Positions 12,840 through 48,427 of a DNA stretch of 64,000 nucleotides are shown one piece after another; the first letter of the stretch is position 1, and each line of letters opens with the position of its first letter. Source of the stretch: Gammaproteobacteria bacterium. GTDB lineage: Bacteria > Pseudomonadota > Gammaproteobacteria > Pseudomonadales > Pseudohongiellaceae. Below the pieces are notes generated by a model, which searched no databases, was not told where the DNA came from, and was given only the letters and a program-made list of their open reading frames with translations. The stretch is from contig PALV01000017.1 in NCBI GenBank assembly GCA_002706685.1, forward strand, positions 189,105 to 253,104. Direction: 5' to 3'. Position numbers and translations under genes: made by a program.

Positions 12840-15161
12840 ATGTCCAAACAAAAGACCGCCAAGGACGACGGGATGGCCAGCCTGTCACAACGTATAGCCC
12901 GCGAGGGGACCCTCATTGCGGCTTTTCTGCTGGGCCTGTTTTTGTTGATTGCGCTGCTCAGTTACTCTCCGGATGATCCCGGATTTACCACCACGGGCAC
13001 CGGTGAGCCGGTACAGAATGCGGTCGGCAATATGGGCGCCTGGCTGGCCGACATTTTGCTGCACATGCTGGGTTACTTCGCATATGTCCTGCCATTTGCC
13101 CTGGGCTTCAAGGTTTACAGGCTGTTCCGAAAGTCCGATGCGGACCAGGCGTTCTCATGGGGCGTTGTATCCATAAAGGTAGCCGGTATTGTGCTGCTGA
13201 TCATTGGCGCCTGCACTCTGGCTACGCTGCACTTCAGTATTCCTACTGGCAGCACCTGGCCTGCAGGCGGTCTGATTGGCGCAGCAATGGCGGATGCCAG
13301 CATTCCAGTGCTGGCCATGCTTGGCAGTACTCTGGTGTACCTGGCAATCTTCCTGTTTGGTCTGACGGTGACCTTTGAGATTTCCTGGCTTTCAGTTGTG
13401 GATGCTATTGGTTACTGGACGATTCATGGGCTTGCCCGGGCACGAGAGCAGTTTGCTGACTGGCAGGAAAAGCGCGCAGAAGCTGGTAAGGTAAAACAGG
13501 CAGTAGAACGGCGCCGCAAGGCTCTGGATGTGCGTATCGAGAAAGAGAAAGTGCGCACGCCGCCCAAGATTGAACCGGTGATCAGTGCACCGCCGCCACG
13601 CAGCAAGCGGGTCGAGAAGGAACGCCAGGGCACGCTGTTTACCGGCAGCAACCCGGGTGAGCTGCCGGCAATCGGTCTGCTTGACGAAAACCGCAATGCC
13701 GGCAAAAAGGGTTATTCCACCGAGTCGCTGGAAGCGATGTCAAAACTGCTGGAGTTGAAATTGCAGGACTTTGGCATTGATATCGAAGTTACGTCGGTGC
13801 ATCCGGGACCGGTGATTACCCGTTTCGAAGTGCAGCCGGCCCCTGGTGTTAAGGCCAGTCGCATCACCAGCCTGGGCAAGGATCTGGCGCGGTCCCTGGC
13901 CGTCATTAGCGTGCGTGTGGTCGAGGTTATTCCAGGCAAGACTGTCATCGGGATCGAGATCCCCAATGAACAGCGCGAAATGATCCTGCTGAGCCAGGTG
14001 CTGGCGTCGCCGGAGTTCGACAAGGCGCAGTCCGCGCTGAGTATGGCGCTGGGGCACGATATTGTTGGCAAACCGGTCATCGTAGACCTTGCCAAGATGC
14101 CGCACCTGCTGGTGGCAGGTACCACAGGCTCAGGCAAGTCGGTGGGCATCAACGCCATGATCCTCAGCCTGCTTTACAAGTCGACACCGGAACATGTCCG
14201 GATGATCATGATCGACCCCAAGATGCTTGAACTGTCCGTGTATGACGGGATTCCTCACCTGCTGACACCAGTTGTAACCGACATGAAGGATGCCGCGAAT
14301 GCGCTGCGCTGGTCGGTAGCCGAAATGGAGCGACGCTACAAATTGATGTCTGCACTGGGCGTGCGGAATCTGGCGGGCTACAACAAAAAAGTCCAGGATG
14401 CGATTAAAGCGGGTGAGCCTATCATAGACCCTATCTGGAAACCCGATCCAATGGCGCTGCAGGATGACCAGGAAGCACCACCCCTTGAACCGTTGCCTAA
14501 TATAGTGGTGATTGTCGACGAACTTGCTGACATGATGATGGTAGTTGGCAAGAAAGTTGAAGAGTTGATCGCACGCATTGCGCAGAAGGCAAGGGCCGCC
14601 GGTATTCACCTCATCCTTGCCACACAGCGGCCCTCCGTGGACGTGTTGACTGGTCTGATCAAGGCCAATATCCCGACCCGACTGTCATTTATGGTGCAGT
14701 CCAAAGTGGACTCCCGCACGATTCTGGGTGAAGGCGGCGCTGAACAGCTGCTGGGCAATGGCGACATGCTGTTTCTGCCTCCCGGTGGTGGCCTGGCCAA
14801 ACGCGTGCACGGTGCCTTTGTCAGTGATGAAGAAGTACACCGTGTCGTGGCTGACTGGAAACAGCGTGGCGAGCCGGTCTATATCGAAGAGATCACCCAG
14901 GGTGTCGAAGACCGCGAAATGAATATGGGTATGGGTGGCGGCAGCGGCGAAGGCGGCGAAGAAGATGATGCGCTGTATGATGAAGCCGTAGCGTTTGTGA
15001 CCGAGTCCCGCAAAGCGTCTATATCGGCAGTGCAGCGTAAGTTGCGAATTGGTTACAACCGCGCCGCCCGGATGATCGAGGCGATGGAAGCAGCCGGTGT
15101 AGTGTCGGAAATGGGCGCCAATGGTAGTCGTGAAGTACTTGCTCCGCCGCCACCCCGATAA
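12840..15161 (+). CDS. ftsK: DNA translocase FtsK
   Basis: N-terminal TM segments, [14 protein letters not shown]-terminal gamma domain ([21 protein letters not shown]). Confidence 0.98.
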
Positions 15162-36121: not shown

Positions 36122-37333
36122 TCACGGCTTCACCCGTTTGTGACGGGCTGATGCATGGCGCTCTGCGCGTTCGACATCAATATAGCGATCGGTGATCGCG
36201 CTCGATCCGTGTCCGGCGTCATCCCGGACATGTTCCCGGGGACGGTATTTAACATCCTCCGAGATGCCGGTATGTCGTAACCAGTGCACGGTTGCTTCGG
36301 CCAGTCGTTCTGCTTCTTCTACAGACCCTTCTTCGCGCAGCTTTGCTTCAGCGCGATCAAAACATTTTTGCACAATGCCGCGTATCTGACGGGTACTGGT
36401 GATGCCACCCTTGCCACGGGTCTTGTGAATAAGCGGCGTAGACTCGCCGGGCAGCGGCAGGGAGGACAGCCCGCGTGATTCGCGATATCGGCGCAGTGCA
36501 CGCAACATGTCATCACTGACAGAAACTTCCCTTTCCTTGTTGCCCTTGCCAACGGTCAGAAACCACCAGTTGCCCTCCAGGTCGCGTTGAAAGTGTCCCA
36601 TCTGCGGTATCCAGCGTTCGGTCTCGACCAGTTCCGATACCCTGAGATACATGGCAAACAGGGCGCTCATCACGAACAAGGTGCGTTCATGGACTTCCGG
36701 CTCCTGCTGTGCCATCTCTTCGGCACATTCGATCACCACATCCCACTGTATCTGGGATAAGCGACGAATCTTGTCCTGTCCCTGACGTTTGCGCAGAAAT
36801 TTGCCTTTCTGGCGAATACGGGCGACCGGGTTGGCCTTTAGGCGGTTTTCCTGCACCAGATAATTAAAAAAGCTGCTCAGCACCGAGAACTTGGCCTGCA
36901 GCGCTGATTGAGAAAGGGAGTAGGGCTGGTCTGGCGCAGTCTGATAGGGGCGCCAGTCAGGGTTGGCCACTCTTTGTCCCTGCCTGTCGATAAAGCGTGG
37001 CACCTGCTTCTGGCCTATCCAGGCATCCGGGGGCTGACGCGAGAACTCGACGTAGGATTCAAGATGCTCGCGCTGGATCTCAGGCAGTGACAGACCGGCA
37101 ACCAGCCACATCCATTGCAGAAAATGCTCCAACTCACGGCGATAGGCGGTAAAGGTGTCGGGACTGCCACGATAGCTGTATAGAAACTCGCTGGCGAAAC
37201 GGAAGTCATCTGCGGCGCTGTCGGGTAATGGTTTTTTGCAGGAAGCCAGGAGTTCCGGACTGAGCACTGGTGGTTCACGCCAGGGGTTGGGCATGCTGTC
37301 CAGCGTGTCAAACAAAGGGTGTGGTGATTTCAT
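36122..37333 (-). CDS. Standalone tyrosine recombinase (phage integrase family)
   Basis: Core-binding TFTAYRRELEHFLQW; intact catalytic set: LRVSEL (R), GKGNK (K), HWLRH (HxxR), DAGH (H), TDRY (Y). Confidence 0.93.
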   Translation of the reverse strand: MKSPHPLFDTLDSMPNPWREPPVLSPELLASCKKPLPDSAADDFRFASEFLYSYRGSPDTFTAYRRELEHFLQWMWLVAGLSLPEIQREHLESYVEFSRQPPDAWIGQKQVPRFIDRQGQRVANPDWRPYQTAPDQPYSLSQSALQAKFSVLSSFFNYLVQENRLKANPVARIRQKGKFLRKRQGQDKIRRLSQIQWDVVIECAEEMAQQEPEVHERTLFVMSALFAMYLRVSELVETERWIPQMGHFQRDLEGNWWFLTVGKGNKEREVSVSDDMLRALRRYRESRGLSSLPLPGESTPLIHKTRGKGGITSTRQIRGIVQKCFDRAEAKLREEGSVEEAERLAEATVHWLRHTGISEDVKYRPREHVRDDAGHGSSAITDRYIDVERAERHASARHKRVKP

Positions 37334-37421
37334 GGTCCGCTATTTTCGTTGTATTTGCCGGGCGATGATAGTTATGCTTGTGAACAATAACCATTAATTA
37401 CCTAAAAACAGGCCACTGTCC

Positions 37422-38777
37422 ATGCTGCAGCTGCTACAGGACCGCTTCCAGCAGATTATCGTGATTCTGCAGAATCCAGAATACTGGTGGCAGTTTTTGA
37501 TCCTGGCTATCGCGGCCTGTCTTTCAGCCCTGATAAATGTCCGGCTTCAGCAGCGGCTGGAACAGAACAACACACAGAGCAGAGGTCTGCGGCATATTGC
37601 AGTCCGTGCCGCACAACGCATTGTCTGGCCATTGACCGCACTTGGCCTGATTCTGGTCGGCACCGGCATCCTTAGAAACTATCAGCTGCCAACCACAATT
37701 CTGGATGTGGTTGTGCCTATCCTGGCTGCGCTGGCCCTTATCCGACTGTGTGTCTACATTCTGCGCAAGTCCTTTTCGCAAAATCCATTGCTGCATTCAT
37801 CGGAGAATCTGCTGGTACTGCTGGTCTGGTCAATTGTGATCATGCACCTGATGGGCTGGCTGCCTACCGTATTGTCCATGCTCGACAGCATGGCATTCAC
37901 GATGGGAGAGACCCGCATTACGCTGCTTTCAACACTGCAGCTGCTGCTCATTGTGGTTCTGGCCTTCATTCTCGCCATATGGCTTTCGGAGCTTATCAAC
38001 CATCAGGTGGCGCGGATGCCGGGGATGTCCCTCAGCATGCAGGTGGGCATCAATAAGTTCAGCCGTTTCCTGTTGCTGACCCTTGCCTTTTTGCTGGCCC
38101 TGAACGCGGTTGGCATCAACCTGAGTTCCCTGGCCATTTTTGGCGGTGCACTCGGTGTGGGTCTGGGCTTTGGCCTGCAGCAGATTGCCTCAAACTTTAT
38201 CAGTGGATTCATACTGGTCCTGGATCGCTCCATCAAGCCCGGCGATGTCATCACGGTGGGTGAAAAGTTTGGCTGGGTGCAGGAGTTAAAAGCCCGCTAC
38301 ATCGTGGTTCGCAACCGTGAAGGCGTGGATACCCTGATTCCCAATGAGAACCTGATTACTTCGGAAGTGATCAACTGGAGTTATGCGGATCCCAATGTGC
38401 GGGTGTCTGTGCCAGTGCAGATCAGTTATGAGGACGATCCGGAGGAGGCCATGCAGCTGATGCTGGAATGTGCAACAGCCTCTGAACGTGTACTTGAAAA
38501 CCCGCCGCCCACGGTCAGGCTGACAGAATTTGGAGACAACGGAATCTGTCTGGAAGTCAGAGTCTGGATTGCTGATCCGGTCAATGGCTTCATGCCGGTA
38601 AGGTCGGATATCAATGTGGCCATCTGGCGCGCATTCAAGAAAGCCGGTATCACCATCCCCTACCCACAGCGGGATCTGCACATCAAATCCATGCCCTCGG
38701 AAAGGGATTTGACCATCGCGACGCGGGCGGATGCTGTGCCCGGGACCCAGCCTGCGCAAGATGATTTGCCTGAATAA
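37422..38777 (+). CDS. MscS family mechanosensitive channel
   Basis: GALGVGLGFGLQQIASNFISG, IKPGDVI, LIPNENLITSEVINWS, ITIPYPQRDLH. Confidence 0.92.
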   Translation: MLQLLQDRFQQIIVILQNPEYWWQFLILAIAACLSALINVRLQQRLEQNNTQSRGLRHIAVRAAQRIVWPLTALGLILVGTGILRNYQLPTTILDVVVPILAALALIRLCVYILRKSFSQNPLLHSSENLLVLLVWSIVIMHLMGWLPTVLSMLDSMAFTMGETRITLLSTLQLLLIVVLAFILAIWLSELINHQVARMPGMSLSMQVGINKFSRFLLLTLAFLLALNAVGINLSSLAIFGGALGVGLGFGLQQIASNFISGFILVLDRSIKPGDVITVGEKFGWVQELKARYIVVRNREGVDTLIPNENLITSEVINWSYADPNVRVSVPVQISYEDDPEEAMQLMLECATASERVLENPPPTVRLTEFGDNGICLEVRVWIADPVNGFMPVRSDINVAIWRAFKKAGITIPYPQRDLHIKSMPSERDLTIATRADAVPGTQPAQDDLPE

Positions 38778-38859
38778 TACGTCTCTTTGACTCTGAATTC
38801 CTATTAAGCAGCGTGTTGCTTTAGGTAACACATTTCTGTTAAGCTCGCCTCATCTACTG

Positions 38860-38875
38860 TACCATCCAGACGGTA
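38860..38875. promoter_or_regulatory. Putative TetR autoregulatory operator
   Basis: TACCATCCAGACGGTA imperfect palindrome (6 of 8 pairs), 5 bp before the tetR ATG. Confidence 0.5.
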
Positions 38876-38880
38876 AAGAC

Positions 38881-39429
38881 ATGAGTGAGTCAAAAGCTAA
38901 TCCACGTGACAATATATTGGACGCTGCCCAGCGTGTTGCCGGCAAAGAAGGGGCGGGCAATCTGACCCTGGACAAGGTGGCCTGTGAATGTGGCATGAGC
39001 AAGGGCGGCCTGCTTTATAACTTTCCCAATAAGGATGCTTTGCTGGCTGGCATGCTTGATCGTCTGCTGGAACAGCACAAGTCCATGATGGACTCTGAGG
39101 AAAAGAGTCTGGCCGGTGAACCCAATGCCTGTCTGAAAGCCATGCTTGGCGCCAACGCGTGTCACGAGGTGGCAGACCCGGGAGTCTATCTTTCGCTGTT
39201 GGCAGCTTCTGCACACAAGCCAGAGCTGATGGCACCCGTCAAGGAAACGCTCGCTGAATACTATCAGCGGCTGCAAAACGAAAGCAGTGACCCCGATATG
39301 GCGACGATACTCTGGCTGGCGGCCGAAGGTTTGATTTTTCACGCCATTCTAGGTCTTGCGCCCTACAGTCAGAGCGAAAAAAACAGATTATTTCAGAAAC
39401 TTATGCAGATATCCGAGGAAGCATTATGA
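38881..39429 (+). CDS. TetR/AcrR family regulator
   Basis: ILDAA...LTLDKVACECGMSKGGLLYNFPNKDALL HTH. Confidence 0.93.
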   Translation: MSESKANPRDNILDAAQRVAGKEGAGNLTLDKVACECGMSKGGLLYNFPNKDALLAGMLDRLLEQHKSMMDSEEKSLAGEPNACLKAMLGANACHEVADPGVYLSLLAASAHKPELMAPVKETLAEYYQRLQNESSDPDMATILWLAAEGLIFHAILGLAPYSQSEKNRLFQKLMQISEEAL

Positions 39430-40505
39430 GAAGTCCGGCTGCACGTGGATTGATGACAATCGTGGGCGCAGTAGCGCTTATGGCGACCTTACAGGCATGT
39501 CAGGAATCGACAGCCGAGCAGGCGCCCGGTGATACCCTGCGCACTGCCCGGGTAGAAACAATCACAGCAGGGCCGGCATACGCGGAGCGCCGCTTTGTTG
39601 GTCGTGTGGCGGCGTCGAGCACCGTCGATCTGTCGTTCCAGGTGGGAGGCCGCATCGTCAACATGCCTGTGCAGGAAGGCAGCATCGTGCCCGCTGGTAA
39701 TCTGATTGCCGAACTGGACAAGACGGACTACGAGCGGGCCGTACGCGAAGCGCAGGTAGCACTTGAGCTGTCCGAGCTGGACCATCAGCGAAATCAGCAG
39801 ATGCTGAATAATGGCGCTATCCCGCAGGCAACTTACGACCGGGCCCTGGCGGATCTGGAGATGCGACGGCTGGCTCTCGCAGCCGCAGAGCGAAACCTGG
39901 GCTATGCCAGCATCGAGGTGCCATTTGACGCGCTGGTAACGCGCCGCCTGGTCGACTCGTTTACTCAAGTTCAGGCGGGCACCGAGGTTGTCAGAGTGCA
40001 GGATGTCACCGAGCTCCGTGTCAACATCTCGGTTCCGGAGAGTCTCATGAGTGTGCTGCAGACGCCTGAGCGTTTCAGCGTTGTAGCCCAGCTTTCTGCA
40101 TATCCGGGGCAGTCATTTGAGCTGGAATACCGTGAACACGCTACAGAAGCGGATCCTGTGACTCAGACTTATCCCATCAGTTTTGCACTGGATCGCAGTG
40201 AGGCGCCCGGGGCATTGCCCGGCATGACTGCCACTGTGATTGTCACATCCCGTCAGGGTGCTATGCCGGACCTGATCACCGTGCCCGTCGCAGCACTGGA
40301 TACTGCGGCAGATGGATCATTCCGTCTGTGGGTTTACGATCAGCAGACAGCACAGGTCTCACCGCGAACGGTGACGGTAGGCACACTGGGTTCAGAGCGC
40401 GTAGAGATTGAGTCGGGCGTACAGATCGGTGAACAGATTGTGACCGCGGGTGCGCATCTGTTACGTGATGGCATGCGAGTGACTCCTTACGTTTCTGTGC
40501 GCTAA
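39426..40505 (+). CDS. RND efflux periplasmic adaptor (lipoprotein)
   Basis: Lipobox-like TLQAC, DLSFQVGGRI, LGYASIEVPFDA, DPVTQTY. Confidence 0.93.
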   Translation: MRSPAARGLMTIVGAVALMATLQACQESTAEQAPGDTLRTARVETITAGPAYAERRFVGRVAASSTVDLSFQVGGRIVNMPVQEGSIVPAGNLIAELDKTDYERAVREAQVALELSELDHQRNQQMLNNGAIPQATYDRALADLEMRRLALAAAERNLGYASIEVPFDALVTRRLVDSFTQVQAGTEVVRVQDVTELRVNISVPESLMSVLQTPERFSVVAQLSAYPGQSFELEYREHATEADPVTQTYPISFALDRSEAPGALPGMTATVIVTSRQGAMPDLITVPVAALDTAADGSFRLWVYDQQTAQVSPRTVTVGTLGSERVEIESGVQIGEQIVTAGAHLLRDGMRVTPYVSVR

Positions 40506-40519
40506 GAAGGACGTATTAC

Positions 40520-43500
40520 ATGGACTTTGCGCGCTATGCTATTGAAAAGCCGGTTAATACCTGGCTGCTGATTATTGTTCTGCTGCTGGGCGGCTGGTGG
40601 GGTATCGAAACTGTCGGGCGACTCGAGGATCCTGCCTTCACCCTGAAGCAGGCAGTTGTGGTCACACCTTATCCGGGCGCGACTGCCAGGGAAGTTGAAC
40701 AGGAAGTCACCGAACACCTGGAGTCCGCCATCCAGCAGCTCGGCCAATTGAAACGTATTCGCTCCAAATCGACGCCCGGCCGTTCTGAGATAACTGTCGA
40801 GATCCAGGATACTTATACCGGCGAGCAGATACCTCAGATATGGGATGAGCTGCGCCGCAAGGTGAATGATTTTCAGCGCAGCCTGCCAGAAGGTGCCGGA
40901 CCGAGCATTGTCAACGATGACTTCAGTGATGTTTTTGGTATTTTCTACGCCGTAACCGCTGATGGTTACACAATCAGAGAAGTACGTGACATATCGAGAT
41001 TTTTACGACGGGAATTACTGACCGTCAATGGTGTCGCCAAGGTTGAAATTCGTGGCCTGCCCAACGAAGCCATTTACGTGGAAGTACCCAACGACAAGCT
41101 GATCAGCTCCGGTATTCCGTTGTCGCAGGTCATCAACAGCATCGAGTCCGAGAATGCGGTTCAGCCGGCTGGGGCCGCGAGAATAGGGGACTTGAACGTT
41201 CGGATCGCCAACTCGCCTGGGTTCGACAGCGTGGCCAATATCGAATCTTTGCGGATCGGGCGACCTGGCAGCACCGATCAGATCAGTCTGGTGGACATGG
41301 CGTCGGTTAGCCGCGAGGCTCAGGAAATCCCTGATCAGCCCATCCGTTTTAATGGCCAGGATGCCTTTACACTGGCAGTTGCCGGCATTGCTGATGCCAA
41401 TATTGTTGAAGTAGGGCAGGCAGTGTCAGCCAAACTGTCCGAATTGCAGACCCAGATTCCGCTGGGTGTTGAACTCCACCCAATTTATGAACAGCACATT
41501 GTCGTTGATGAGGCTATCAACGCCTTCATCGTTAATCTCGCAATGTCCGTTGCCATTGTTGTCGGCGTGCTTTGCCTGTTCATGGGTTGGCGAGTAGGGC
41601 TGGTCGTGGGCCTGACACTGTTACTGACCGTCCTTGGTACCGTGTTTTTCATGCGCATCTTTAACATCGAGATGGAGCGTATCTCGCTGGGCGCATTGAT
41701 TATTGCTATGGGGATGCTGGTTGATAACGCCATCGTTATTGCCGAAGGCATGCTGATCAATATGCAACGTGGCATGAAAGCCCACAAGGCCGCCAGCGAA
41801 GCCGCGGTACGTACTCAGTGGCCGCTTCTGGGTGCGACCCTGATCGGTATCATGGCGTTTTCCGGTATCGGCCTGTCCCAGGACACCACGGGAGAGTTCC
41901 TGTTCTCATTGTTCGCCGTGATCGGTATTTCACTGTTGCTGAGCTGGCTGCTGGCTGTCACCGTCACACCTCTGTTCGGGGACTATTTGCTGAAGGTCAA
42001 AGGCGGTGGTGATTCAGGGGCCGATCCGTATCGTGGCCTGTTCTACGCCCTGTACCGTCGCATTCTGCATACGACACTGGCCATGCGGGCTGTCACTGTG
42101 CTTGCTTTGCTGCTGATCACAGTAGTCAGTTATTGGGGTTTCGGGTCAGTCAAACAGGCGTTTTTCCCCGATTCCAACACGCCGATCTTTTTTGTTGATT
42201 ACAGACTGCCGCAGGGCAGCGATATCCGGGCCACGGCTCGTGATACGGCACGGCTGGACGAACAGGTGCTGGCACTTCCAGGGGTGCAGAGTGTCGCCAG
42301 CTTTGTAGGGCAGGGTGCCTCACGCTTCATGCTGACCTATGAGCCCGAGCAGCCTGATGATTCATACGGTCACTTGATTGTCCGCACCGAAAACCGTGAT
42401 GTGATAGATGATCTGACAGCTCAGATTCGAACTGACCTGGCGCAGCAGTATCCGGCGGCAGATATCCGTACGCGACGCCTGGTATTTGGACCTGGCGCCG
42501 GTGCCAAACTGGAAGCGCGTTTCAGCGGTCCAGACCCGCGCGAATTGCGGCGGCTGGCAGATGAGGCAATCACAGTGCTTTCGCAGGATCCCGATGTTAT
42601 CGATCTGCGGCACAACTGGTACCAGCGCGAACTGGTCATCGCACCGCAATTCAACGATGAGAGAGCGCGTCTTGCCGGTGTGGCCCGCAGCGATCTGGCG
42701 CAGACGCTGGAGTTTGCCAGCACAGGTGTGCGTGCAGGATCATACCGCGAGGGTGATGAAAGGGTGCCTATCATCATCCGGCCGCCGGATCAGGAGCGGC
42801 TGGCCGTAGAGCGATTTCAGGAGCGGCTGGTATGGAGCAGTGGCGAGCAGCGTTACGTGCCTATCACGCAGGTAGTCGACCAGTTCACCACAGATGCCGA
42901 AGAAACCATGATTATCCGCCGGGACAGGGCAAGGACGATTTCAGTCCTGGCAGACCCGGTCATGGGTAAAACGGCTGATGAGGTACTGCGACAGGTGAGG
43001 CCACATATTGAGGCTATCCCTCTGCCGCCGGGTTACACATTAACCTGGGGTGGTGAGTTTGAGGCTTCAAGCGAAGCACAGGCTTCGCTGGGTGCTCAGC
43101 TGCCATTAAGCTTCCTGTCGATGCTTATCATATCCGTGCTCATCTTTGGCAAGGTACGCCAGCCGCTGATCATCTGGCTGGTTGTGCCAATGTCGGTCTG
43201 CGGTGTGGTGGCAGGACTGTTGCTCAGCAATCTGCCTTTCAGCTTCACTGCCTTGTTGGGCCTGTTGAGTCTTTCGGGCATGCTGATGAAAAACGCAATT
43301 GTCCTGGTAGACGAAATCGATGCACAGCGGGAAGAGGGCAAGGATGACTTTAAGGCGGTTGTTGATGCCTCGGTAAGTCGTCTGCGTCCCGTGTTCCTGG
43401 CGGCGGCGACAACCATTCTGGGTATGATTCCACTGTTGTCAGATGCATTTTTTGCCAGCATGGCAGTCACAATTATGGGCGGTTTGGCGTTTGCGACCGT

Positions 43501-43576
43501 ATTGACACTGGTGGCAGTGCCCGTATTTTATGCGATATTGTTCCGCATCAAAGCTGCTGGCACCGCCACAGTTTAA
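40520..43576 (+). CDS. RND efflux permease (AcrB family)
   Basis: 1018 aa; GRLEDPAF, GMLVDNAIV, MKNAIVLVD, SRLRPVFL. Confidence 0.95.
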   Translation: MDFARYAIEKPVNTWLLIIVLLLGGWWGIETVGRLEDPAFTLKQAVVVTPYPGATAREVEQEVTEHLESAIQQLGQLKRIRSKSTPGRSEITVEIQDTYTGEQIPQIWDELRRKVNDFQRSLPEGAGPSIVNDDFSDVFGIFYAVTADGYTIREVRDISRFLRRELLTVNGVAKVEIRGLPNEAIYVEVPNDKLISSGIPLSQVINSIESENAVQPAGAARIGDLNVRIANSPGFDSVANIESLRIGRPGSTDQISLVDMASVSREAQEIPDQPIRFNGQDAFTLAVAGIADANIVEVGQAVSAKLSELQTQIPLGVELHPIYEQHIVVDEAINAFIVNLAMSVAIVVGVLCLFMGWRVGLVVGLTLLLTVLGTVFFMRIFNIEMERISLGALIIAMGMLVDNAIVIAEGMLINMQRGMKAHKAASEAAVRTQWPLLGATLIGIMAFSGIGLSQDTTGEFLFSLFAVIGISLLLSWLLAVTVTPLFGDYLLKVKGGGDSGADPYRGLFYALYRRILHTTLAMRAVTVLALLLITVVSYWGFGSVKQAFFPDSNTPIFFVDYRLPQGSDIRATARDTARLDEQVLALPGVQSVASFVGQGASRFMLTYEPEQPDDSYGHLIVRTENRDVIDDLTAQIRTDLAQQYPAADIRTRRLVFGPGAGAKLEARFSGPDPRELRRLADEAITVLSQDPDVIDLRHNWYQRELVIAPQFNDERARLAGVARSDLAQTLEFASTGVRAGSYREGDERVPIIIRPPDQERLAVERFQERLVWSSGEQRYVPITQVVDQFTTDAEETMIIRRDRARTISVLADPVMGKTADEVLRQVRPHIEAIPLPPGYTLTWGGEFEASSEAQASLGAQLPLSFLSMLIISVLIFGKVRQPLIIWLVVPMSVCGVVAGLLLSNLPFSFTALLGLLSLSGMLMKNAIVLVDEIDAQREEGKDDFKAVVDASVSRLRPVFLAAATTILGMIPLLSDAFFASMAVTIMGGLAFATVLTLVAVPVFYAILFRIKAAGTATV

Positions 43577-43606
43577 CGCCTGTCTTGCAGATATCGAGGT
43601 AAGTAA

Positions 43607-44182
43607 ATGAAAAGAAAGTTGATATTGAAAGTTGCCGGTGCACTACTGGGGGTGCTCATTGCCGCAAGTGTCAATGCTCAGTCTACTTTGTCGGATGTAT
43701 TGAACCTGCGTGAGTACAGCGACACCTTTGCCAGCGCTGGTCAGCCGACAGCCGAGCAGTTTGAGGCCATCCGCGATGCCGGCTACGAGCGTGTCATCTA
43801 CATTGCGTTTACCACGAATGACAACGCACTGGCCAATGCTGATCAGGTCGTCAAAGGGCTTGGCATGGATTACCTGCATATCCCGGTGGACTGGAACAAC
43901 CCGACCAAGCGTGATTTCTATGCGTTTGCCGATGCCATGCAACGCAACCCTGAACAGAAAACGCTGCTGCATTGCCAGGTTAATGCGCGCGCCACGGCAT
44001 TCAGTTTTATGTATCGCGTCGTCTATGAGGATGTACCGGTCGCAGAAGCCAAAGCTGACATGAACACAGTCTGGCAGCCCAACGAAACCTGGCGCGACCT
44101 GATTTTTGAGGTACTGGCAGATCACGGCATTTCACCAGATTGCGAAGGCTGCGACTGGACGCCGTCGCAGGTTGGTGGCTGA
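43607..44182 (+). CDS. Exported PTP-fold / DUF442-like phosphatase-family protein
   Basis: Signal peptide; SAGQPT, HIPVDW, LLHCQVNAR (CX5R-like loop). Confidence 0.75.
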   Translation: MKRKLILKVAGALLGVLIAASVNAQSTLSDVLNLREYSDTFASAGQPTAEQFEAIRDAGYERVIYIAFTTNDNALANADQVVKGLGMDYLHIPVDWNNPTKRDFYAFADAMQRNPEQKTLLHCQVNARATAFSFMYRVVYEDVPVAEAKADMNTVWQPNETWRDLIFEVLADHGISPDCEGCDWTPSQVGG

Positions 44183-44313
44183 TTCGATTCCGCCAAAGTC
44201 TCACCGGTGTTTATATTGTAAGCATCGGTGAGCAATGAAAATGGACCCGCACTGATAGATATATTTCATATAAAACAATCAGGTAGTGGCTTTGCCTGGT
44301 GTGCTGACGTAGG

Positions 44314-44853
44314 TCAGGGGAGCCGGTTGTCCAGGTCCAGTGAGAAACTCCCATTGACTTTGTTGTTTACTGAAACCTTGTAATCGCCTGCCGCTAACTC
44401 AAAGACTGGTAAGGGGATAGTTTTCGAAAAAACCACAGAATCAGCAGTGCAGCTGATCTCCGGCGGCGAAAGAGACTCTGGGTCAAAATACACAAACACC
44501 TTAAATGCACTATCTTCCTTATCAACCGCGTATGCGCCAACCTCAACACAACTCGAAATCCAGCCTGAGACTTTCAAAAAGACCTGAACCGGACGCTCGG
44601 TTGTTTTGATAATTTCTAAGGCATCAACAGTGTTTATTAGCTGGCCTTCGTCAACTGATACAAGCGACCAGGACAGCTCAGATTCTTCGCTTCTTAGAGT
44701 CGCATTCAGAAATTTACCTGGCTCGCCTTCAAAACCTATGAACGGAATAGTCAGGGTATACTTCTGGTCAAAACTTAATTCAGTCGTAGCAGTCTGAGAA
44801 AAGAGCGTCTGGGGTATTAGAACGACGAACAAACCGATTAACTGTGATTTCAT
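44314..44853 (-). CDS. Exported hypothetical protein
   Basis: Signal-peptide-like N-terminus, two Cys, AT-richer codon use than its neighbours. Confidence 0.7.
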   Translation of the reverse strand: MKSQLIGLFVVLIPQTLFSQTATTELSFDQKYTLTIPFIGFEGEPGKFLNATLRSEESELSWSLVSVDEGQLINTVDALEIIKTTERPVQVFLKVSGWISSCVEVGAYAVDKEDSAFKVFVYFDPESLSPPEISCTADSVVFSKTIPLPVFELAAGDYKVSVNNKVNGSFSLDLDNRLP

Positions 44854-44954
44854 TGCTGTATTCCTTTACGTTGCAAAATTACCGTGAGCTACAAATTTAA
44901 ACGACAGGTGCAGTCGGGCACAACTCATCAGCAGGGTGCCATAACAATCGCCAC

Positions 44955-44976
44955 TATTTCCGGTAATCTTTATTAC
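44955..44976 (+). repeat. attL: 22-bp direct repeat
   Basis: TATTTCCGGTAATCTTTATTAC, identical to 48395-48416. Confidence 0.92.
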
Positions 44977-45000
44977 TAAATTCAATGACTTGCAGCTCCC

Positions 45001-45180
45001 CTAAAAGGGGAGCTTCCTGAATTTGTTAGCTACCAGGTATGACACCGCTGTTTCTAACCGTCTCAATTCCCTATCTATCTGTAAAAATTCATCACCTTCC
45101 GCAACGCTATGCTTTTCTAGCACAGCGTTCATTTCTTTAACTATCTCAGCCTCTGCCTCGTTAAACGTTACCTGGTACAT
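45001..45180 (-). CDS. 59-aa hypothetical protein (below the ORF-track cutoff)
   Basis: MYQVTFNEAEAEIVKEMNAVLEKHSVAEGDEFLQIDRELRRLETAVSYLVANKFRKLPF; GGGAG SD upstream; stop overlaps the AGCTCCCCT-AAA-AGGGGAGCT hairpin. Confidence 0.6.
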   Translation of the reverse strand: MYQVTFNEAEAEIVKEMNAVLEKHSVAEGDEFLQIDRELRRLETAVSYLVANKFRKLPF

Positions 45181-45187
45181 AGTATAT

Positions 45188-45470
45188 GCTCCCGTATCAG
45201 CACCCCCAGCGGGTGCCTCTCGGGAGCCTGCGTACCTCCACGCGCAGGCCTGTCAATGGTGTCCTGGACACGCTTGCGCTTGCCATTGACAGGCTGAGCA
45301 TGGAGGTATGCTGAGCGGACGTAGGCATACGCGCTCTGGCTTACGGAGTGAGGGTTTTATAACGTGGACGGGGGGCTTGCTCCCTGTAGGCCCTTACAGG
45401 GCCTTTCCGCGGCTCCAGAACCCCTCGATCGACAAGGTGCGGTGAATGTAATACTGCACCTTTGTACCAT
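45188..45470. other. Hairpin-dense noncoding region, probable ssDNA/rolling-circle origin region
   Basis: Nested inverted repeats including GCTCCCG/CGGGAGC, GCCTGTCAATGG/CCATTGACAGGC (12 bp), TACCTCCA/TGGAGGTA, AAGGTGC/GCACCTT. Confidence 0.55.
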
Positions 45471-45486
45471 TTTTGGTAATTTCTCT

Positions 45487-45536
45487 ACCTGGCGGGGTTT
45501 GCTGGTGAGCCCTCGAACCGGCAAAGCCTGCCAGGT
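45487..45536. repeat. Structured repeat R1 (about 50-nt hairpin)
   Basis: ACCTGGC...TTTGCTGGTGAGCCCTCGAACCGGCAAAGC...GCCAGGT; 30-bp core matches R2 with 1 mismatch. Confidence 0.85.
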
Positions 45537-45613
45537 CCTCAGCCGTCCTTCCTGTCAAACTTTAACCAGGTAAATCCCGTCATACGTATCAACCACCACA
45601 TATCGGTATAACT

Positions 45614-45838
45614 ATGACATCGTCCTGGTATGAGTCTTACGGCAGCAATGTTCTACACTTGCTGCCCACTGACGAAGAGCATCTGCACAAGGATGACTAT
45701 ATCCAAGCCCTCTGCGGGCATGTCGTTTTCGGCAACTGGGCGACCAGGTCAGACTCTGCTGATGCACGTCAGCCACTTCCTCCCCAATGCAAACGATGCC
45801 AAAAGAAGGCCCTTTCCGGCTCCATCGCTAAATCGTAG
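45614..45838 (+). CDS. 74-aa hypothetical protein with a possible Zn-binding motif
   Basis: H...ALCG...CKRC; no clear SD; followed by a 10-bp inverted repeat at 45842-45869. Confidence 0.45.
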   Translation: MTSSWYESYGSNVLHLLPTDEEHLHKDDYIQALCGHVVFGNWATRSDSADARQPLPPQCKRCQKKALSGSIAKS

Positions 45839-45932
45839 GGCAGTACCGGTGCTATGTATCACCGGTACTTAGTCTCATGGGTGAGACTTTGCGTGCAAAT
45901 ACAGCGCCTTTTACCATTTATGCTACTCGCCC

Positions 45933-45984
45933 CACCTGGGTGGCTTTGCTGGTGAGTCCTCGAACCGGCAAAGCATCCCAGGTG
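45933..45984. repeat. Structured repeat R2 (about 52-nt hairpin)
   Basis: CACCTGGG...TTTGCTGGTGAGTCCTCGAACCGGCAAAGC...CCCAGGTG; directly after the XRE stop codon. Confidence 0.85.
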
Positions 45985-45985
45985 C

Positions 45986-46399
45986 TCAACCTTCCTTGCG
46001 CTTCAATATCGGATCGAGGTCGCCGGACGACCATAGGATGTTTGGTAAAATCCCGTTACGTTCGCGTTTAAGCATCTTCTGAGCCGCTTTAGCCATGCAG
46101 TAGTGATCTACCATGTCGATCACAACCGCTTTGCTATCGTCGTCCAGCTTTTCTGCACGTTCCAGTGTGGTCGCCAGCAGGGCAGACAGCCCAACTTCCT
46201 CGCCGTCCTGTAGCAGAGAGTTTGGCGAGCATTCCAGGGCATTTATCAGCTTGTATACCGTCGACAGCTTCGGATCGGCGCTGTCGCTGCTCTCCATCGT
46301 TGATATGTGGCTGCTCTTAATCCCTGCCATAGCAGCCAGTTGGTGCTGAGTCAGGTTTTTATCCCTTCTGAGCCTTCTTAGATTTTCCCCAAAAGACAT
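45986..46399 (-). CDS. XRE-family HTH repressor (RstR/cI-like)
   Basis: FGENLRRLRRDKNLTQHQLAAMAGIKSSHISTMES...DPKLSTVYKLINALECS; divergent from rep. Confidence 0.9.
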   Translation of the reverse strand: MSFGENLRRLRRDKNLTQHQLAAMAGIKSSHISTMESSDSADPKLSTVYKLINALECSPNSLLQDGEEVGLSALLATTLERAEKLDDDSKAVVIDMVDHYCMAKAAQKMLKRERNGILPNILWSSGDLDPILKRKEG

Positions 46400-46445
46400 A
46401 TAAGACCCTCATAGAAGTGTTTGACCCCATCAGAGCTGAAAGTAT

Positions 46446-46515
46446 ATACCCCCTGTAGAGGGTATTTTGTTGACTATCCCTTGCGCCTGGTATAAAAATT
46501 CCCCTGTAGGGGTAT
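46446..46515. promoter_or_regulatory. Two operator-like palindromes flanking a promoter-like sequence between XRE and rep
   Basis: ATACCCCCTGTAGAGGGTAT (46446-46465) and ATTCCCCTGTAGGGGTAT (46498-46515); TTGACT...TGGTATAAA between them (15-bp spacing, extended -10). Confidence 0.6.
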
Positions 46516-46584
46516 TGACAGGTTTTTATCCAGGTGATTTTCGAGCCACATTTCGACATTGAAAAAGAGCATGAGCACTCTGGC

Positions 46585-47595
46585 ATGCTTGATTGGCTTT
46601 CCCTGAAAATTAACCTTATGCATCTCTCCGAGCCTGTTGTACGCCACCTGCAATCACTCTCTGGCATGGTCTTTAAGATAAATGCCCTAACAGGGGAAGA
46701 AGACTGGAGGACTTATTGCTGGACCAAGATACCTTCTGACTCAACGGATATTCATTTTCGGGTAACAGACTCACTTCATATTCAAGGAAGCCCCGCCCGC
46801 ATAGGTATGCCCAACAACGTATTTGGCGCCATTGATATTCGCTATTGCGCGCAGAAGATGATCGGTTTCGCAGCCCAGCAACTCGGTTATCCACTACCTG
46901 TTATCGAGTCCTGGGGGTGCACCAGGATCGACGTCACTCGCAACTATCTGATGCAATCAGAGTCCGAAGCTCGACAGGCACTGGCTTACTTGAAACAGGC
47001 TCCAGAGAGCCGCCAAGCTCATAGCTACGAGCAAAATGGTTTCTACATAGGCAAAGGTTCGTCGTTACAGAAGGGAAAAATATATCTAAAGGGTAGGGAA
47101 GCCGTAGCCAATCAACGTAAAAAGAGGAGGGCGCACTACACTGAAGAACAACTGAGCAAATGCCAGAGATTACTAAGAGCTGAACATACAATTGGCCGTC
47201 ATTTGCTACGCCGTTTGCGTGAACAGCAAGCCATAGAATGGTACCAACTTAGTCCGAATTATCTAATTCAAATGCATAATTTATATTTTAAAGAATATTT
47301 CTCCGATATGGAGCTGACTGATATGTCAACAATACTTGAGAAGCTAACTACTGTATCGCCTACTGAAGGCCAGGCCCGTGCAGCCTATGACTGTTACGTA
47401 CGTATTCGAATGGTTGGTTATGAACAAGCCAGGGTTACTTTCACAAAACCCTCGTGGTATCGCCACATAAAACACCTTAAGGCTATTGGTCTCACTCGCG
47501 CGGATCTCCAGCCCATTAATGTCATCCCGCTCCGTAAGCGAGCTATTGAGCTGTCGCAGCCCATTCGTCACTGGGACGATATTCGGGCAGCTTAA
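46585..47595 (+). CDS. Phage/plasmid replication initiator, gene II/X (Cri-like) family
   Basis: MLDWLSLKI start, IQGSPAR, NNVFG, TRIDVTRNY, KIYLKG, LLRAEHTIG, YRHIKHLKAIG pattern typical of gpII/X-type Reps; ORF-track GTG start is 46534. Confidence 0.85.
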   Translation: MLDWLSLKINLMHLSEPVVRHLQSLSGMVFKINALTGEEDWRTYCWTKIPSDSTDIHFRVTDSLHIQGSPARIGMPNNVFGAIDIRYCAQKMIGFAAQQLGYPLPVIESWGCTRIDVTRNYLMQSESEARQALAYLKQAPESRQAHSYEQNGFYIGKGSSLQKGKIYLKGREAVANQRKKRRAHYTEEQLSKCQRLLRAEHTIGRHLLRRLREQQAIEWYQLSPNYLIQMHNLYFKEYFSDMELTDMSTILEKLTTVSPTEGQARAAYDCYVRIRMVGYEQARVTFTKPSWYRHIKHLKAIGLTRADLQPINVIPLRKRAIELSQPIRHWDDIRAA

Positions 47596-47657
47596 TCGGT
47601 GCCAATTAAACGTTACCGTAACAAAAAATTAAACATGGTCTTTAGGAGATTCCCGCG

Positions 47658-47999
47658 ATGGTCACAACCACCAACAATCCTGAACTTGTTAATCTAATTG
47701 GTATGCAGTTTCACGTCCGCGACATCGATGACTTTGAAGAATATCCAAAGAGCGTCAGACACATTCTCGCTACCAACGCACTGAACGCAGATGTGTTTAT
47801 CCATTCAATTGTGTTCAACGCCGACACTCCGCCTGATATCGGTCTTGTTAACGATATTGATTCACCCGATGACATGGAATATTACAAGCCTTGGCAGTTG
47901 GTGTTTTCACCCCCATCCGGGTCATCTCAGCCACTACCAGGTGGTTTATTCAACAAAGACGGTACATTGATTGCGCTTATCCATCATAAGCAGATTTAG
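47658..47999 (+). CDS. 113-aa acidic hypothetical protein
   Basis: AGGAG SD upstream; directly downstream of rep; no family recognised. Confidence 0.7.
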   Translation: MVTTTNNPELVNLIGMQFHVRDIDDFEEYPKSVRHILATNALNADVFIHSIVFNADTPPDIGLVNDIDSPDDMEYYKPWQLVFSPPSGSSQPLPGGLFNKDGTLIALIHHKQI

Positions 48000-48098
48000 G
48001 CCGCTTAGATGGCCTCGCTTCAGTTCGAGCACTCGCCGACAACTGTCCATTGGTTTGTCCAGGTAGATGGACTTTAGGCCAGCTGCCTGGACACACCA

Positions 48099-48386
48099 AT
48101 GACCTTACGCGCGGCTAACAAAGATTCGGAAATTACTGATCACACGTGGGATGGTCTGATCAGGATCGCACTGAAATACCAAGGAAGGATGGGCCGGTAT
48201 CACAATATCCGCTATGATCGAAAGCACCTGTACATTGTGCTGAACGTTCGCCAGTTAGCGTCGATCCTCGTGGATAAAAAGATAATCAGCTCTTGGCCTG
48301 CTGGGTTCACGCGGTTAACCACGATAGAAGAGGCTGTCATCAGAGAATTTAAGAAGCTTCACGGGAAAACCCACCTAGATACCTAG
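48099..48386 (+). CDS. 95-aa basic hypothetical protein
   Basis: ORF ends 9 bp before attR; weak SD; no family recognised. Confidence 0.55.
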   Translation: MTLRAANKDSEITDHTWDGLIRIALKYQGRMGRYHNIRYDRKHLYIVLNVRQLASILVDKKIISSWPAGFTRLTTIEEAVIREFKKLHGKTHLDT

Positions 48387-48394
48387 GGTTATCT

Positions 48395-48427
48395 TATTTC
48401 CGGTAATCTTTATTACCGGAAATAGTG
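48395..48427 (+). repeat. attR: 22-bp direct repeat inside a palindrome
   Basis: TATTTCCGGTAA-TCTTTA-TTACCGGAAATA(GTG); right arm is the exact reverse complement of 44952-44966. Confidence 0.92.

What the first reader, a model, noticed from the sequence alone, without database searches (positions are those of the whole stretch)
36122..48427. Candidate non-canonical single-recombinase Xer/dif-like system: orphan tyrosine recombinase plus a perfectly symmetric TAA-N6-TTA site
Seen: joining attL (44952-44976) to the right of attR (48417-48427) rebuilds CACTATTTCCGGTAA-TCTTTA-TTACCGGAAATAGTG, two identical 15-bp inverted arms around a 6-bp spacer. A catalytically intact tyrosine recombinase (36122-37333) lies about 7.6 kb away among ordinary chromosomal genes, with no phage genes near it. 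No canonical dif was found in the window. Established: TAA-N6-TTA is the dif core geometry; XerC/XerD sites have two different arms, whereas single-recombinase systems (XerS/difSL, XerH/difH, archaeal XerA) use one protein on both arms. Inference: identical arms imply one protein, this recombinase is the nearest candidate, and the pair may act at the terminus.
Basis: partly seen in the sequence, partly recalled or inferred. Interest (0 to 1): 0.85.

Follow-up and report, generated by a model that had tools for sequence, protein, structure and literature searches.

The report
XerL/dif dimer-resolution system with IMEX
This marine Pseudohongiella bacterium lacks the usual XerC/XerD pair and instead has the single-recombinase XerL/dif chromosome-dimer resolution system so far described only in Legionella and Coxiella, with a small filamentous-phage-like element inserted in its dif site.

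Summary
The recombinase at 36122-37333(-) is an orthologue of Legionella pneumophila XerL (53% identity, E 8e-147), with all catalytic residues kept (Tyr384 = Lp Tyr387). The palindrome at 48395-48424 is unique in the genome. It lies about 0.5-4 kb from the cumulative GC-skew maximum of its contig. It is conserved, spacer included, across Pseudohongiellaceae while its flanks are unrelated. In a closed relative it lies 4.7 kb from the point opposite dnaA. The genome has no XerC/XerD and no gamma-type dif. Over 400 sampled Gammaproteobacteria, XerL-type and XerD genes almost exclude each other (79 / 286 / 3 both; p 5e-53). 55 of 80 named loci carry one such palindrome within 10 kb upstream of xerL, with symmetric compensatory arm changes. 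The 3.4-kb insert (44977-48394) is an integrase-less inovirus-like element (Rep + RstR-like repressor). It left one degenerate and one intact dif; two conspecific genomes show the exact empty 36-bp site, and another species has a tandem array. New here: XerL/dif well outside Legionellales, tight dif-xerL linkage, and a new IMEX type. Function is inferred, not assayed.

The parts
36122..37333 (-). xerL orthologue: 403-aa tyrosine recombinase; catalytic R231, K263/K266, H350, R353, H375, Y384
   Evidence: BLASTP against L. pneumophila XerL gives 53% identity over 374 aa, E 8e-147. Pfam PF02899 + PF00589 match weakly; NCBIfam XerC scores only 67 bits against a 335 cut-off. The catalytic residues are invariant in alignment A1. 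It is single-copy in all 25 Pseudohongiellaceae genomes searched.
48395..48424 (+). Functional dif (attR): TATTTCCGGTAA-TCTTTA-TTACCGGAAATA, 12-bp perfect inverted arms around a 6-bp asymmetric spacer. The chromosomal right arm continues to 48427 (GTG).
   Evidence: Unique in the genome. Identical core and spacer in more than 20 related genomes with unrelated flanks. Arm symmetry and compensatory changes.
44952..44987 (+). attL, a crippled dif: the chromosomal left arm CACTATTTCCGGTAA plus spacer TCTTTA plus an element-derived right arm TTACTAAATTCA (6 of 12 positions differ from a true arm)
   Evidence: The G012 tandem array has the same layout.
44977..48394 (+). Integrated 3.4-kb IMEX-type element (inovirus-like satellite) with no integrase, coat or assembly genes
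   Evidence: Bounded by the 22-bp repeat. Absent from the intact site in G011 and G013. A related element sits in tandem at dif in G012. It occurs once only in this genome.
46534..47595 (+). Rolling-circle replication initiator of the element (filamentous-phage G2P/Cri type), 353 aa
   Evidence: PF05144 E 1.4e-17; TIGR01629 E 1.1e-18; phrog_702 E 4.7e-42. Only 22-24% identical to known inovirus Reps.
45986..46399 (-). RstR-like XRE-family repressor of the element, 137 aa
   Evidence: PF01381 E 2.8e-11; NCBIfam phage_RstR 59.8 bits, below its cut-off of 80. 73% identical to the repressor of the G012 elements.
47658..48386 (+). Two small element ORFs of unknown function (47658-47999, 113 aa; 48099-48386, 95 aa)
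   Evidence: No Pfam or PHROG match.
44482..44482 (.). Cumulative GC-skew maximum of the contig (C17:233,586), i.e. the replication terminus
   Evidence: skew is positive over 230 kb to the left and negative to the right.
12840..15161 (+). ftsK (773 aa) with a gamma domain; a possible partner of XerL, with no evidence of dependence
   Evidence: PF09397 E 2.3e-27 at C17:204062-204247; ORF.

Best explanation
The region holds the chromosome-dimer resolution system of a Pseudohongiella species, and it is of the XerL/dif type.

One tyrosine recombinase, XerL (36122-37333, minus strand), is proposed to bind both identical 12-13-bp arms of the single dif site at the replication terminus (48395-48424). 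After an odd number of sister-chromosome crossovers, two dif sites on the dimer synapse and XerL exchanges the strands across the 6-bp spacer TCTTTA using Tyr384. The asymmetry of the spacer sets the alignment of the two sites.

A 3.4-kb filamentous-phage-like element has no integrase of its own. It carries an attP made of one good arm, the same spacer and only TTAC of the second arm. It has used this machinery to integrate at dif. Integration left a crippled site on the left (attL) and regenerated a working dif on the right. That keeps dimer resolution intact and should slow re-excision.

Shown here: homology to XerL, catalytic residues, uniqueness and conservation of the site, terminus position, absence of XerCD, co-occurrence of gene and site, and the insertion structure.

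Inferred: binding, catalysis at this site, the dimer-resolution role, any role of FtsK, and that XerL mediated the integration.
For: 1. Homology: 53% identity and E 8e-147 to the experimentally characterised L. pneumophila XerL. Lp Tyr387, whose Y387F mutant is inactive, aligns with Tyr384. R-K-H-R-H-Y is invariant in 12 diverse members. Legionella XerLs nest inside the same family tree.

2. No alternative Xer: the genome has six PF00589 proteins in total. Four of the other five were scanned: three carry Arm DNA-binding domains like phage integrases, and none scores as Xer. The fifth is a 1017-aa protein. The best XerD-model hit is only E 1e-14.

3. Phyletic complementarity. In 41 relatives, 32 have XerL and no XerD and 9 have XerD and no XerL (p 2.9e-9). 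In 400 class-wide genomes the counts are 79 XerL only, 286 XerD only, 3 both and 32 neither (p 4.6e-53).

4. Terminus. The skew maximum is 473 bp from attL. In closed G012 the site lies 4.7 kb from the dnaA antipode and 4.2 kb from the local skew maximum. In closed G033 (another family) a variant site lies 5 kb from the skew maximum.

5. Site under selection. The 30-bp core and spacer are identical across genus and family while the flanks are unrelated. 55 of 80 named loci have exactly one such site, always upstream of xerL, against 0-5 in shuffles. The arms are at least 90% symmetric to position 12, with paired compensatory changes at positions 5, 9, 10 and 12.

6. IMEX. The exact empty 36-bp site is present in G011 and G013. 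G012 has a tandem array with attL, a hybrid site and an intact dif, and the same element-side junction. This is the same logic as LME-1, whose 22-nt att leaves one intact and one modified dif.
Against: There is no experimental evidence for this organism: no binding, cleavage, recombination or phenotype data.

The dif arms share only about 5 of 9 positions with the Legionella arms as inferred from the LME-1 att, so site specificity has diverged and cannot be transferred by homology.

Three of 82 XerL-bearing genomes also gave XerD-model hits (G183, G316, G403). One of them (G316) has a full XerC/XerD pair, though it is a 7%-contaminated, 810-contig assembly.

25 of the 80 named loci showed no site within the sequence held. 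Many of these are short contigs, and in G016 the site is 35 kb away.

Because the site often lies 100-250 bp upstream of xerL, it could also act as an operator.

FtsK dependence is unknown even in Legionella.
Confidence: 0.87

Rival explanations
1. The palindrome is mainly a regulatory operator for xerL (autoregulation) or for neighbouring genes, and not a recombination site. Its conservation reflects transcriptional control.
For: In many relatives the site lies only 100-250 bp upstream of the xerL start, and it is always upstream, never downstream.
Against: In this genome and in several others the site is 7-35 kb from xerL with other genes in between. It tracks the GC-skew switch or dnaA antipode in three genomes. 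Integrase-less elements have recombined precisely within it in two species. The homologous Legionella protein recombines exactly this kind of site. No extra half-sites lie near xerL in the window. An operator role could exist alongside the dif role.
Confidence: 0.05
2. The site is only the attachment site of the small element, and the 403-aa protein is an unrelated phage or island integrase that happens to lie nearby. Dimer resolution in this organism is done by something else or not at all.
For: The Pfam integrase match is weak (27.7 bits, just over cut-off). The protein is about 400 aa long, the usual size of phage integrases.
Against: The protein has no Arm DNA-binding domain, unlike three of the four other recombinases scanned in this genome. 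It is single-copy and about 70% identical across a whole family, in a chromosomal context. It is mutually exclusive with XerD across 400 genomes. It is 53% identical to XerL. The intact site is present in genomes that lack the element.
Confidence: 0.03
3. The dif-xerL pair is a self-contained mobile or plasmid-derived resolution cassette, like a plasmid multimer-resolution module captured by the chromosome. Its main role is maintaining such elements and not chromosome dimer resolution.
For: Gene and site are tightly linked like a module. In C. burnetii xerL and a dif-like site sit together on a plasmid, and a Legionella sp. plasmid carries a XerL homologue. G027 has two paralogues on one contig.
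Against: There is one copy per genome at the terminus in closed chromosomes of two families. XerCD is absent in all carriers. The flanking genes are ordinary chromosomal genes with synteny to conspecifics.
Confidence: 0.05

Closest known systems
XerL/dif of Legionellales (L. pneumophila lpg1867 and its dif; C. burnetii XerL), Nicholson, Deecker & Ensminger, mBio 2022 (PMC9765430)
   Same: Orthologous recombinase of about 400 aa (53% identity, same catalytic Tyr). One recombinase and no XerC/XerD. The dif has uninterrupted perfectly inverted arms (10-12 bp there, 12-13 bp here). The site is unique, intergenic and at the GC-skew terminus. It is exploited by an integrase-less element whose 22-nt att covers one arm, the spacer and a few bases of the other arm, leaving one intact and one modified dif.
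   Different: The host is Pseudohongiella (GTDB order Pseudomonadales sensu lato), not Legionellales; the paper describes XerL as restricted to Legionellales. The arm sequence differs: TTCCGGTAA here, against GTCTGATTA as inferred from the LME-1 att. Here dif lies 0.1-35 kb upstream of xerL, whereas the two are more than 400 kb apart in L. pneumophila. The exploiting element is a 3.4-kb inovirus-like Rep/RstR satellite, not LME-1. Nothing has been tested experimentally here.
XerS/difSL (streptococci, lactococci) and XerH/difH (Helicobacter, Campylobacter)
   Same: Single-recombinase Xer systems in which the dif site lies next to the xer gene as a module.
   Different: Different recombinase families: NCBIfam XerS scores 35.5 bits against a cut-off of 267. 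Their dif arms are only partly symmetric.
Canonical XerC/XerD-dif of Proteobacteria
   Same: Same proposed job, a TAA-N6-TTA core geometry, terminus location, and exploitation by IMEX elements.
   Different: XerCD uses two paralogous recombinases of about 300 aa and a 28-bp dif with two different arms. Neither is present in this genome.
IMEX elements derived from filamentous phages (Vibrio cholerae TLC-phi and RS1 satellites, CTX-phi) and Legionella LME-1
   Same: No integrase. Integration at dif by the host Xer machinery. G2P/Cri-type Rep plus an RstR-like repressor. An attP with one degenerate arm. A working dif is regenerated. Tandem arrays occur (G012).
   Different: The element uses XerL/dif and not XerCD/dif. 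Its Rep is only 22-24% identical to known inovirus Reps. It has no coat, Zot or cargo genes. Mobility has not been shown.

Membership tests
XerL/dif single-recombinase system | Recombinase homologous to the characterised L. pneumophila XerL (lpg1867) | tested here: met
   BLASTP gives 53% identity over 374 aa, E 8e-147. Legionella XerLs nest within the same family tree.
XerL/dif single-recombinase system | Intact tyrosine-recombinase catalytic set, including the Tyr equivalent to Lp Y387 | tested here: met
   R231, K263/K266, H350, R353, H375 and Y384 are invariant in A1. Y384 aligns with Lp Y387.
XerL/dif single-recombinase system | dif with long, uninterrupted, perfectly inverted arms around a short spacer, unique in the chromosome | tested here: met
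   12-bp perfect arms and a 6-bp spacer. One copy in 3.64 Mb. Symmetry is conserved to position 12-13 in 78 sites.
XerL/dif single-recombinase system | dif located at the replication terminus (cumulative GC-skew maximum) | tested here: met
   473 bp (attL) to 3.9 kb (dif) from the skew maximum on the contig. 4.7 kb from the dnaA antipode in closed G012. 5 kb from the skew maximum in closed G033.
XerL/dif single-recombinase system | No XerC/XerD (or XerS/XerH) in the genome | tested here: met
   Only six PF00589 proteins. Best XerD-model hit is E 1.3e-14. Class-wide mutual exclusion.
XerL/dif single-recombinase system | XerL is necessary and sufficient for RecA-independent recombination at dif; deleting xerL or dif gives filamentation | not testable with these tools
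   Requires genetics or biochemistry. Shown only for Legionella and Coxiella proteins.
XerL/dif single-recombinase system | Taxonomic range as published (order Legionellales) | tested here: not met
   Carriers are named Pseudohongiella, OM182, Reinekea, Saccharospirillum and Granulosicoccus. This is a description of range and not a mechanistic criterion, so it widens the family and does not exclude this member.
Canonical XerCD/dif | Two paralogous recombinases of about 300 aa that reach the XerC/XerD model cut-offs, and a 28-bp dif with distinct arms | tested here: not met
   XerC scores 67 bits against a 335 cut-off; XerD scores 56 bits against 330. No dif-like site within 7 mismatches.
IMEX (integrative mobile element exploiting Xer) | Integrated exactly at dif, flanked by dif and a dif-like site, with no recombinase of its own | tested here: met
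   22-bp repeat and attL/attR anatomy. No integrase domain in any element ORF. Empty site in G011 and G013, and a tandem array in G012.
IMEX (integrative mobile element exploiting Xer) | Integration or excision shown to depend on the host Xer recombinase | not testable with these tools

The most novel reading that the evidence does not exclude
XerL/dif is not a Legionellales peculiarity. It is the second major chromosome-dimer resolution system of Gammaproteobacteria. It was found in about 20% of 400 genomes sampled evenly across the class, including abundant marine clades (Pseudohongiellaceae/OM182, Saccharospirillaceae, Reinekea, Granulosicoccus). It almost perfectly excludes XerCD. Outside Legionella it exists as a linked dif-xerL module at the terminus. 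It supports its own class of inovirus-derived IMEX satellites. The module may have displaced XerCD once anciently or repeatedly by transfer.
Probability: 0.6. Interest if true: 0.65.

Novelty: new member of a known kind. Interest (0 to 1): 0.55.

Why it matters
A 2009 survey (PMC2731167) left open how gamma-proteobacteria with large genomes but no XerCD or dif resolve chromosome dimers. The 2022 XerL work answered this for Legionellales only and described XerL as confined to that order.

The data here indicate that the same system serves many other lineages. Its presence is almost perfectly complementary to XerCD. In these lineages the site and the gene form a linked module.

This gives three things. 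First, a simple annotation rule for a gene now labelled 'tyrosine-type recombinase/integrase' or mislabelled XerD. Second, dif and terminus markers for many marine genomes and MAGs. Third, natural arm variants with compensatory changes that map the recognition code of XerL.

It also shows that filamentous-phage-like satellites exploit XerL/dif, as they exploit XerCD/dif in Vibrio.

Tried and rejected
- Canonical dif: fuzzy search of the whole genome with the E. coli, V. cholerae and P. aeruginosa dif sequences (up to 7 mismatches) found nothing.
- tRNA or known RNA at the att site: none. Only two sub-threshold miRNA-model hits on a hairpin at 45227-45314.
- REP or terminator reading of the palindrome: rejected, because it is unique per genome, AT-rich at the centre, and has a conserved asymmetric spacer.
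- A strict palindrome scan (at least 10 of 11 arm matches) near the distant homologues in G033, G027 and G026 found nothing dif-like. A relaxed TAA-N6-TTA scan then found variant sites in G033 and G027, but none for the 37%-identity G026 protein, which the tree shows to be an outlier.
- The 'half-sites near the recombinase gene' idea: no ATTTCCGGTAA-like motif (up to 1 mismatch) lies near 36-38 kb.
- The 9-kb segment beside dif in G011 and G013 was suspected to be another IMEX. It encodes GGDEF/EAL and histidine-kinase genes, so it is ordinary terminus-region variation.
- The Legionella dif sequence is not printed in the XerL paper's text or tables. Only the 22-nt LME-1 att from PMC5071653 was available, and the second arm was completed by inference.
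- The phage database gave only remote Rep matches.
- Whether Saccharophagus degradans and Colwellia psychrerythraea (the 2009 orphans) carry XerL was not tested.

Full report
**1. The observation.**
A 22-bp direct repeat TATTTCCGGTAATCTTTATTAC lies at 44955-44976 and 48395-48416.

The left copy is preceded by CAC and followed by unrelated sequence (taaattca...). The right copy runs on into CGGAAATAGTG. So the right site is by itself a perfect palindrome, TATTTCCGGTAA-TCTTTA-TTACCGGAAATA (48395-48424).

The core occurs once in the window, against 0.03 expected. The full site occurs once in the 3.64-Mb, 99.99%-complete genome.

The ORF 36122-37333(-) encodes a 403-aa tyrosine recombinase. It lies between a tail-specific protease gene and an MscS channel gene.

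**2. What lies between the repeats.**
The 3,418 bp between the repeats encode:
- a filamentous-phage G2P/Cri-type replication initiator (PF05144, TIGR01629, phrog_702);
- a divergently transcribed RstR-like XRE repressor;
- a few small ORFs without matches.

There is no integrase, coat or assembly gene. The Rep is only 22-24% identical to known inovirus Reps.

Two genomes whose XerL is 99% identical (G011, G013) contain the uninterrupted 36-bp site CACTATTTCCGGTAATCTTTATTACCGGAAATAGTG.

A closed genome of another species (G012) has two tandem copies (period 2,442 bp) of a related element (repressor 73% identical) next to its dif. The order is:
- chromosomal left arm + degenerate right arm;
- element copy 1;
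- hybrid site;
- element copy 2;
- intact dif.

The element-side junction there is GTTATnTTATTTCCGG, as in the window.

This is the anatomy of an IMEX. The element's attP has one good arm, the spacer, and only TTAC of the other arm. Integration leaves a crippled attL (6 of 12 right-arm positions changed) and regenerates a working dif.

**3. The recombinase is XerL.**
The genome has only six PF00589 proteins. Four of the other five were scanned; three carry Arm DNA-binding domains like phage integrases, and none scores as a Xer. The fifth is a 1017-aa protein. The best hit of the XerD model in the genome is E 1e-14.

The literature search led to the XerL/dif system of Legionellales (PMC9765430):
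- a dif with perfectly inverted 10-12-bp arms at the terminus;
- LME-1, which integrates through a 22-bp att and leaves one intact and one modified dif.

The L. pneumophila XerL sequence from that paper's Table S3 is 53% identical to the window protein over 374 residues, E 8e-147. Y387 aligns with Y384. The C-terminal motif ATVHWLRHTGISEDVKxRPREHVRDDAGHxSSAxTDRYID is nearly the same in both.

R231, K263/K266, H350, R353, H375 and Y384 are invariant in an alignment of 12 diverse members.

In a maximum-likelihood tree the chromosomal Legionella XerLs form a sub-branch inside the family. The Pseudohongiellaceae proteins sit in the large, poorly resolved sister assemblage.

**4. The palindrome behaves as dif.**

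(a) Terminus position.
- On contig C17 the GC skew is positive for 230 kb and then negative. The cumulative maximum is at C17:233,586 (window 44,482), 473 bp from attL.
- In closed genome G012, dnaA is at 208 and the chromosome is 3,345,119 bp. The site lies at 1,677,505. That is 4.7 kb from the antipode and 4.2 kb from the local skew maximum.
- In closed G033 (another family) a variant site, TACCGATAA-TAATAA-TTATCGGAG, lies 5 kb from the skew maximum and 13 kb from xerL.

(b) Conservation. The 30-bp site, including the asymmetric spacer, is identical in over 20 genomes of the genus and family, while the sequence just outside it is unrelated.

(c) Linkage. Of 80 named loci fetched with ±10 kb around xerL homologues, 55 have exactly one such palindrome. 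It is always upstream of xerL and often 100-250 bp away. Shuffled controls give 0-5.

(d) One protein for both arms. Across 78 distinct sites the arms are at least 90% symmetric out to position 12, 69% at position 13, and at background beyond that. Paired compensatory changes occur at positions 5, 9, 10 and 12. The spacer TCTTTA is kept in 71 of 78 sites. So the arms under selection are 12-13 bp; the 15-bp symmetry is local to this species.

**5. Distribution.**
Names attached to close homologues identify the organism as Pseudohongiella.

In the 41 nearest genomes:
- all 32 without XerD have the XerL-type gene, nearly always as one copy;
- all 9 with XerD (and XerC) lack it (Fisher p 2.9e-9).

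In 400 genomes drawn evenly from the class:
- 79 have XerL only;
- 286 have XerD only;
- 3 have both;
- 32 have neither (p 4.6e-53).

Named carriers include Pseudohongiella nitratireducens, OM182, Reinekea blandensis, Saccharospirillum alexandrii and Granulosicoccus.

The XerL paper's sequence table contains none of these, and its text calls XerL restricted to Legionellales. In the held library, 'XerL' in this sense appears only in that paper and one other Legionella paper.

**6. Comparison with Legionella dif.**
The LME-1 att is AAGTCTGATTATTTTGATAATC (PMC5071653). Completing the second arm by the stated perfect symmetry gives AGTCTGATTA-TTTTGA-TAATCAGACT. This completion is my inference.

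The architecture is the same, and so is the 22-nt extent of the element's att. The arm sequences share only about 5 of 9 positions. Specificity has therefore diverged with the protein.

**7. Mechanism and limits.**
The best-supported reading is single-recombinase dimer resolution by XerL at a terminus dif, with an inovirus-like satellite integrated as an IMEX.

FtsK with a gamma domain is encoded in the window at 12840-15161. Whether XerL needs FtsK is unknown, even in Legionella.

An additional operator role for the site is possible where it abuts xerL.

Nothing here has been tested by experiment.

**8. Verdict.**
The system is a new member of a known kind (XerL/dif). The new information is a much wider host range, tight dif-xerL linkage, and a new IMEX type. 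Interest is moderate.

Noticed in passing
window 45462-45550 and 45909-45997: An 89-nt direct repeat (81% identical) inside the element, on either side of the end of the repressor gene. An earlier first-reader note calls these twin hairpins. They could be Rep origin or terminator structures.
   Followed up: no
window 44183-44951: A 770-bp segment between the conserved left flank and attL, holding a 179-aa ORF (44314-44853, minus strand) with a signal-peptide-like N-terminus. It is absent from conspecific G013, where the flank gene ends about 55 bp from dif.
   Followed up: partly
L085 10867-19870 (G013:C2:816,866-825,869), and the same position in G011: About 9 kb of GGDEF/EAL response-regulator and PAS/GAF/CHASE histidine-kinase genes lies between dif and the conserved right flank in two conspecific genomes. 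The window lacks this segment. It shows strain-level variability right at the terminus.
   Followed up: partly
L083 (G012:C1:1,679,684 and 1,682,126): Each copy of the tandem element in G012 carries a second perfect palindrome, CCCCAAGTTAC-TCTATA-GTAACTTGGGG, which also has 11-bp arms and a 6-bp spacer. Its function is unknown; it may be the Rep origin.
   Followed up: no
G041, G067, G075, G084, G095, G112 and others: A second tier of proteins of about 400 aa, 29-37% identical to XerL (E 1e-30 to 1e-47). It occurs in some genomes that have neither XerD nor a close XerL. This may be a further divergent single-recombinase family. The G026 homologue is of this kind, and no dif-like palindrome was found near it.
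   Followed up: no
L091 (G027:C757): Two XerL-family paralogues (53% and 39% identity) lie on one 14.6-kb contig. One site, TTCCGATAA-TAATAA-TTATCGGTA, is 77 bp upstream of the first paralogue. A second related site, CGCCGATAA-GATGAG-TTATCGGAA, is 6.7 kb away.
   Followed up: no
L127, L131, L181, L184: MAG records titled Rhodoferax, Klebsiella, Enterobacteriaceae and Candidatus Acidoferrum carry Pseudohongiella-type xerL (65-78% identity) together with the matching dif. These are probably mis-binned or mislabelled contigs.
   Followed up: no
G183, G316, G403: Three genomes gave both a strong XerL hit and a XerD-model hit. Only G316 (810 contigs, 7% contamination) has a full XerC/XerD pair. This could be true coexistence or an assembly mixture.
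   Followed up: no
window 12840-15161: ftsK lies about 30 kb from dif on the same replichore.
   Followed up: partly
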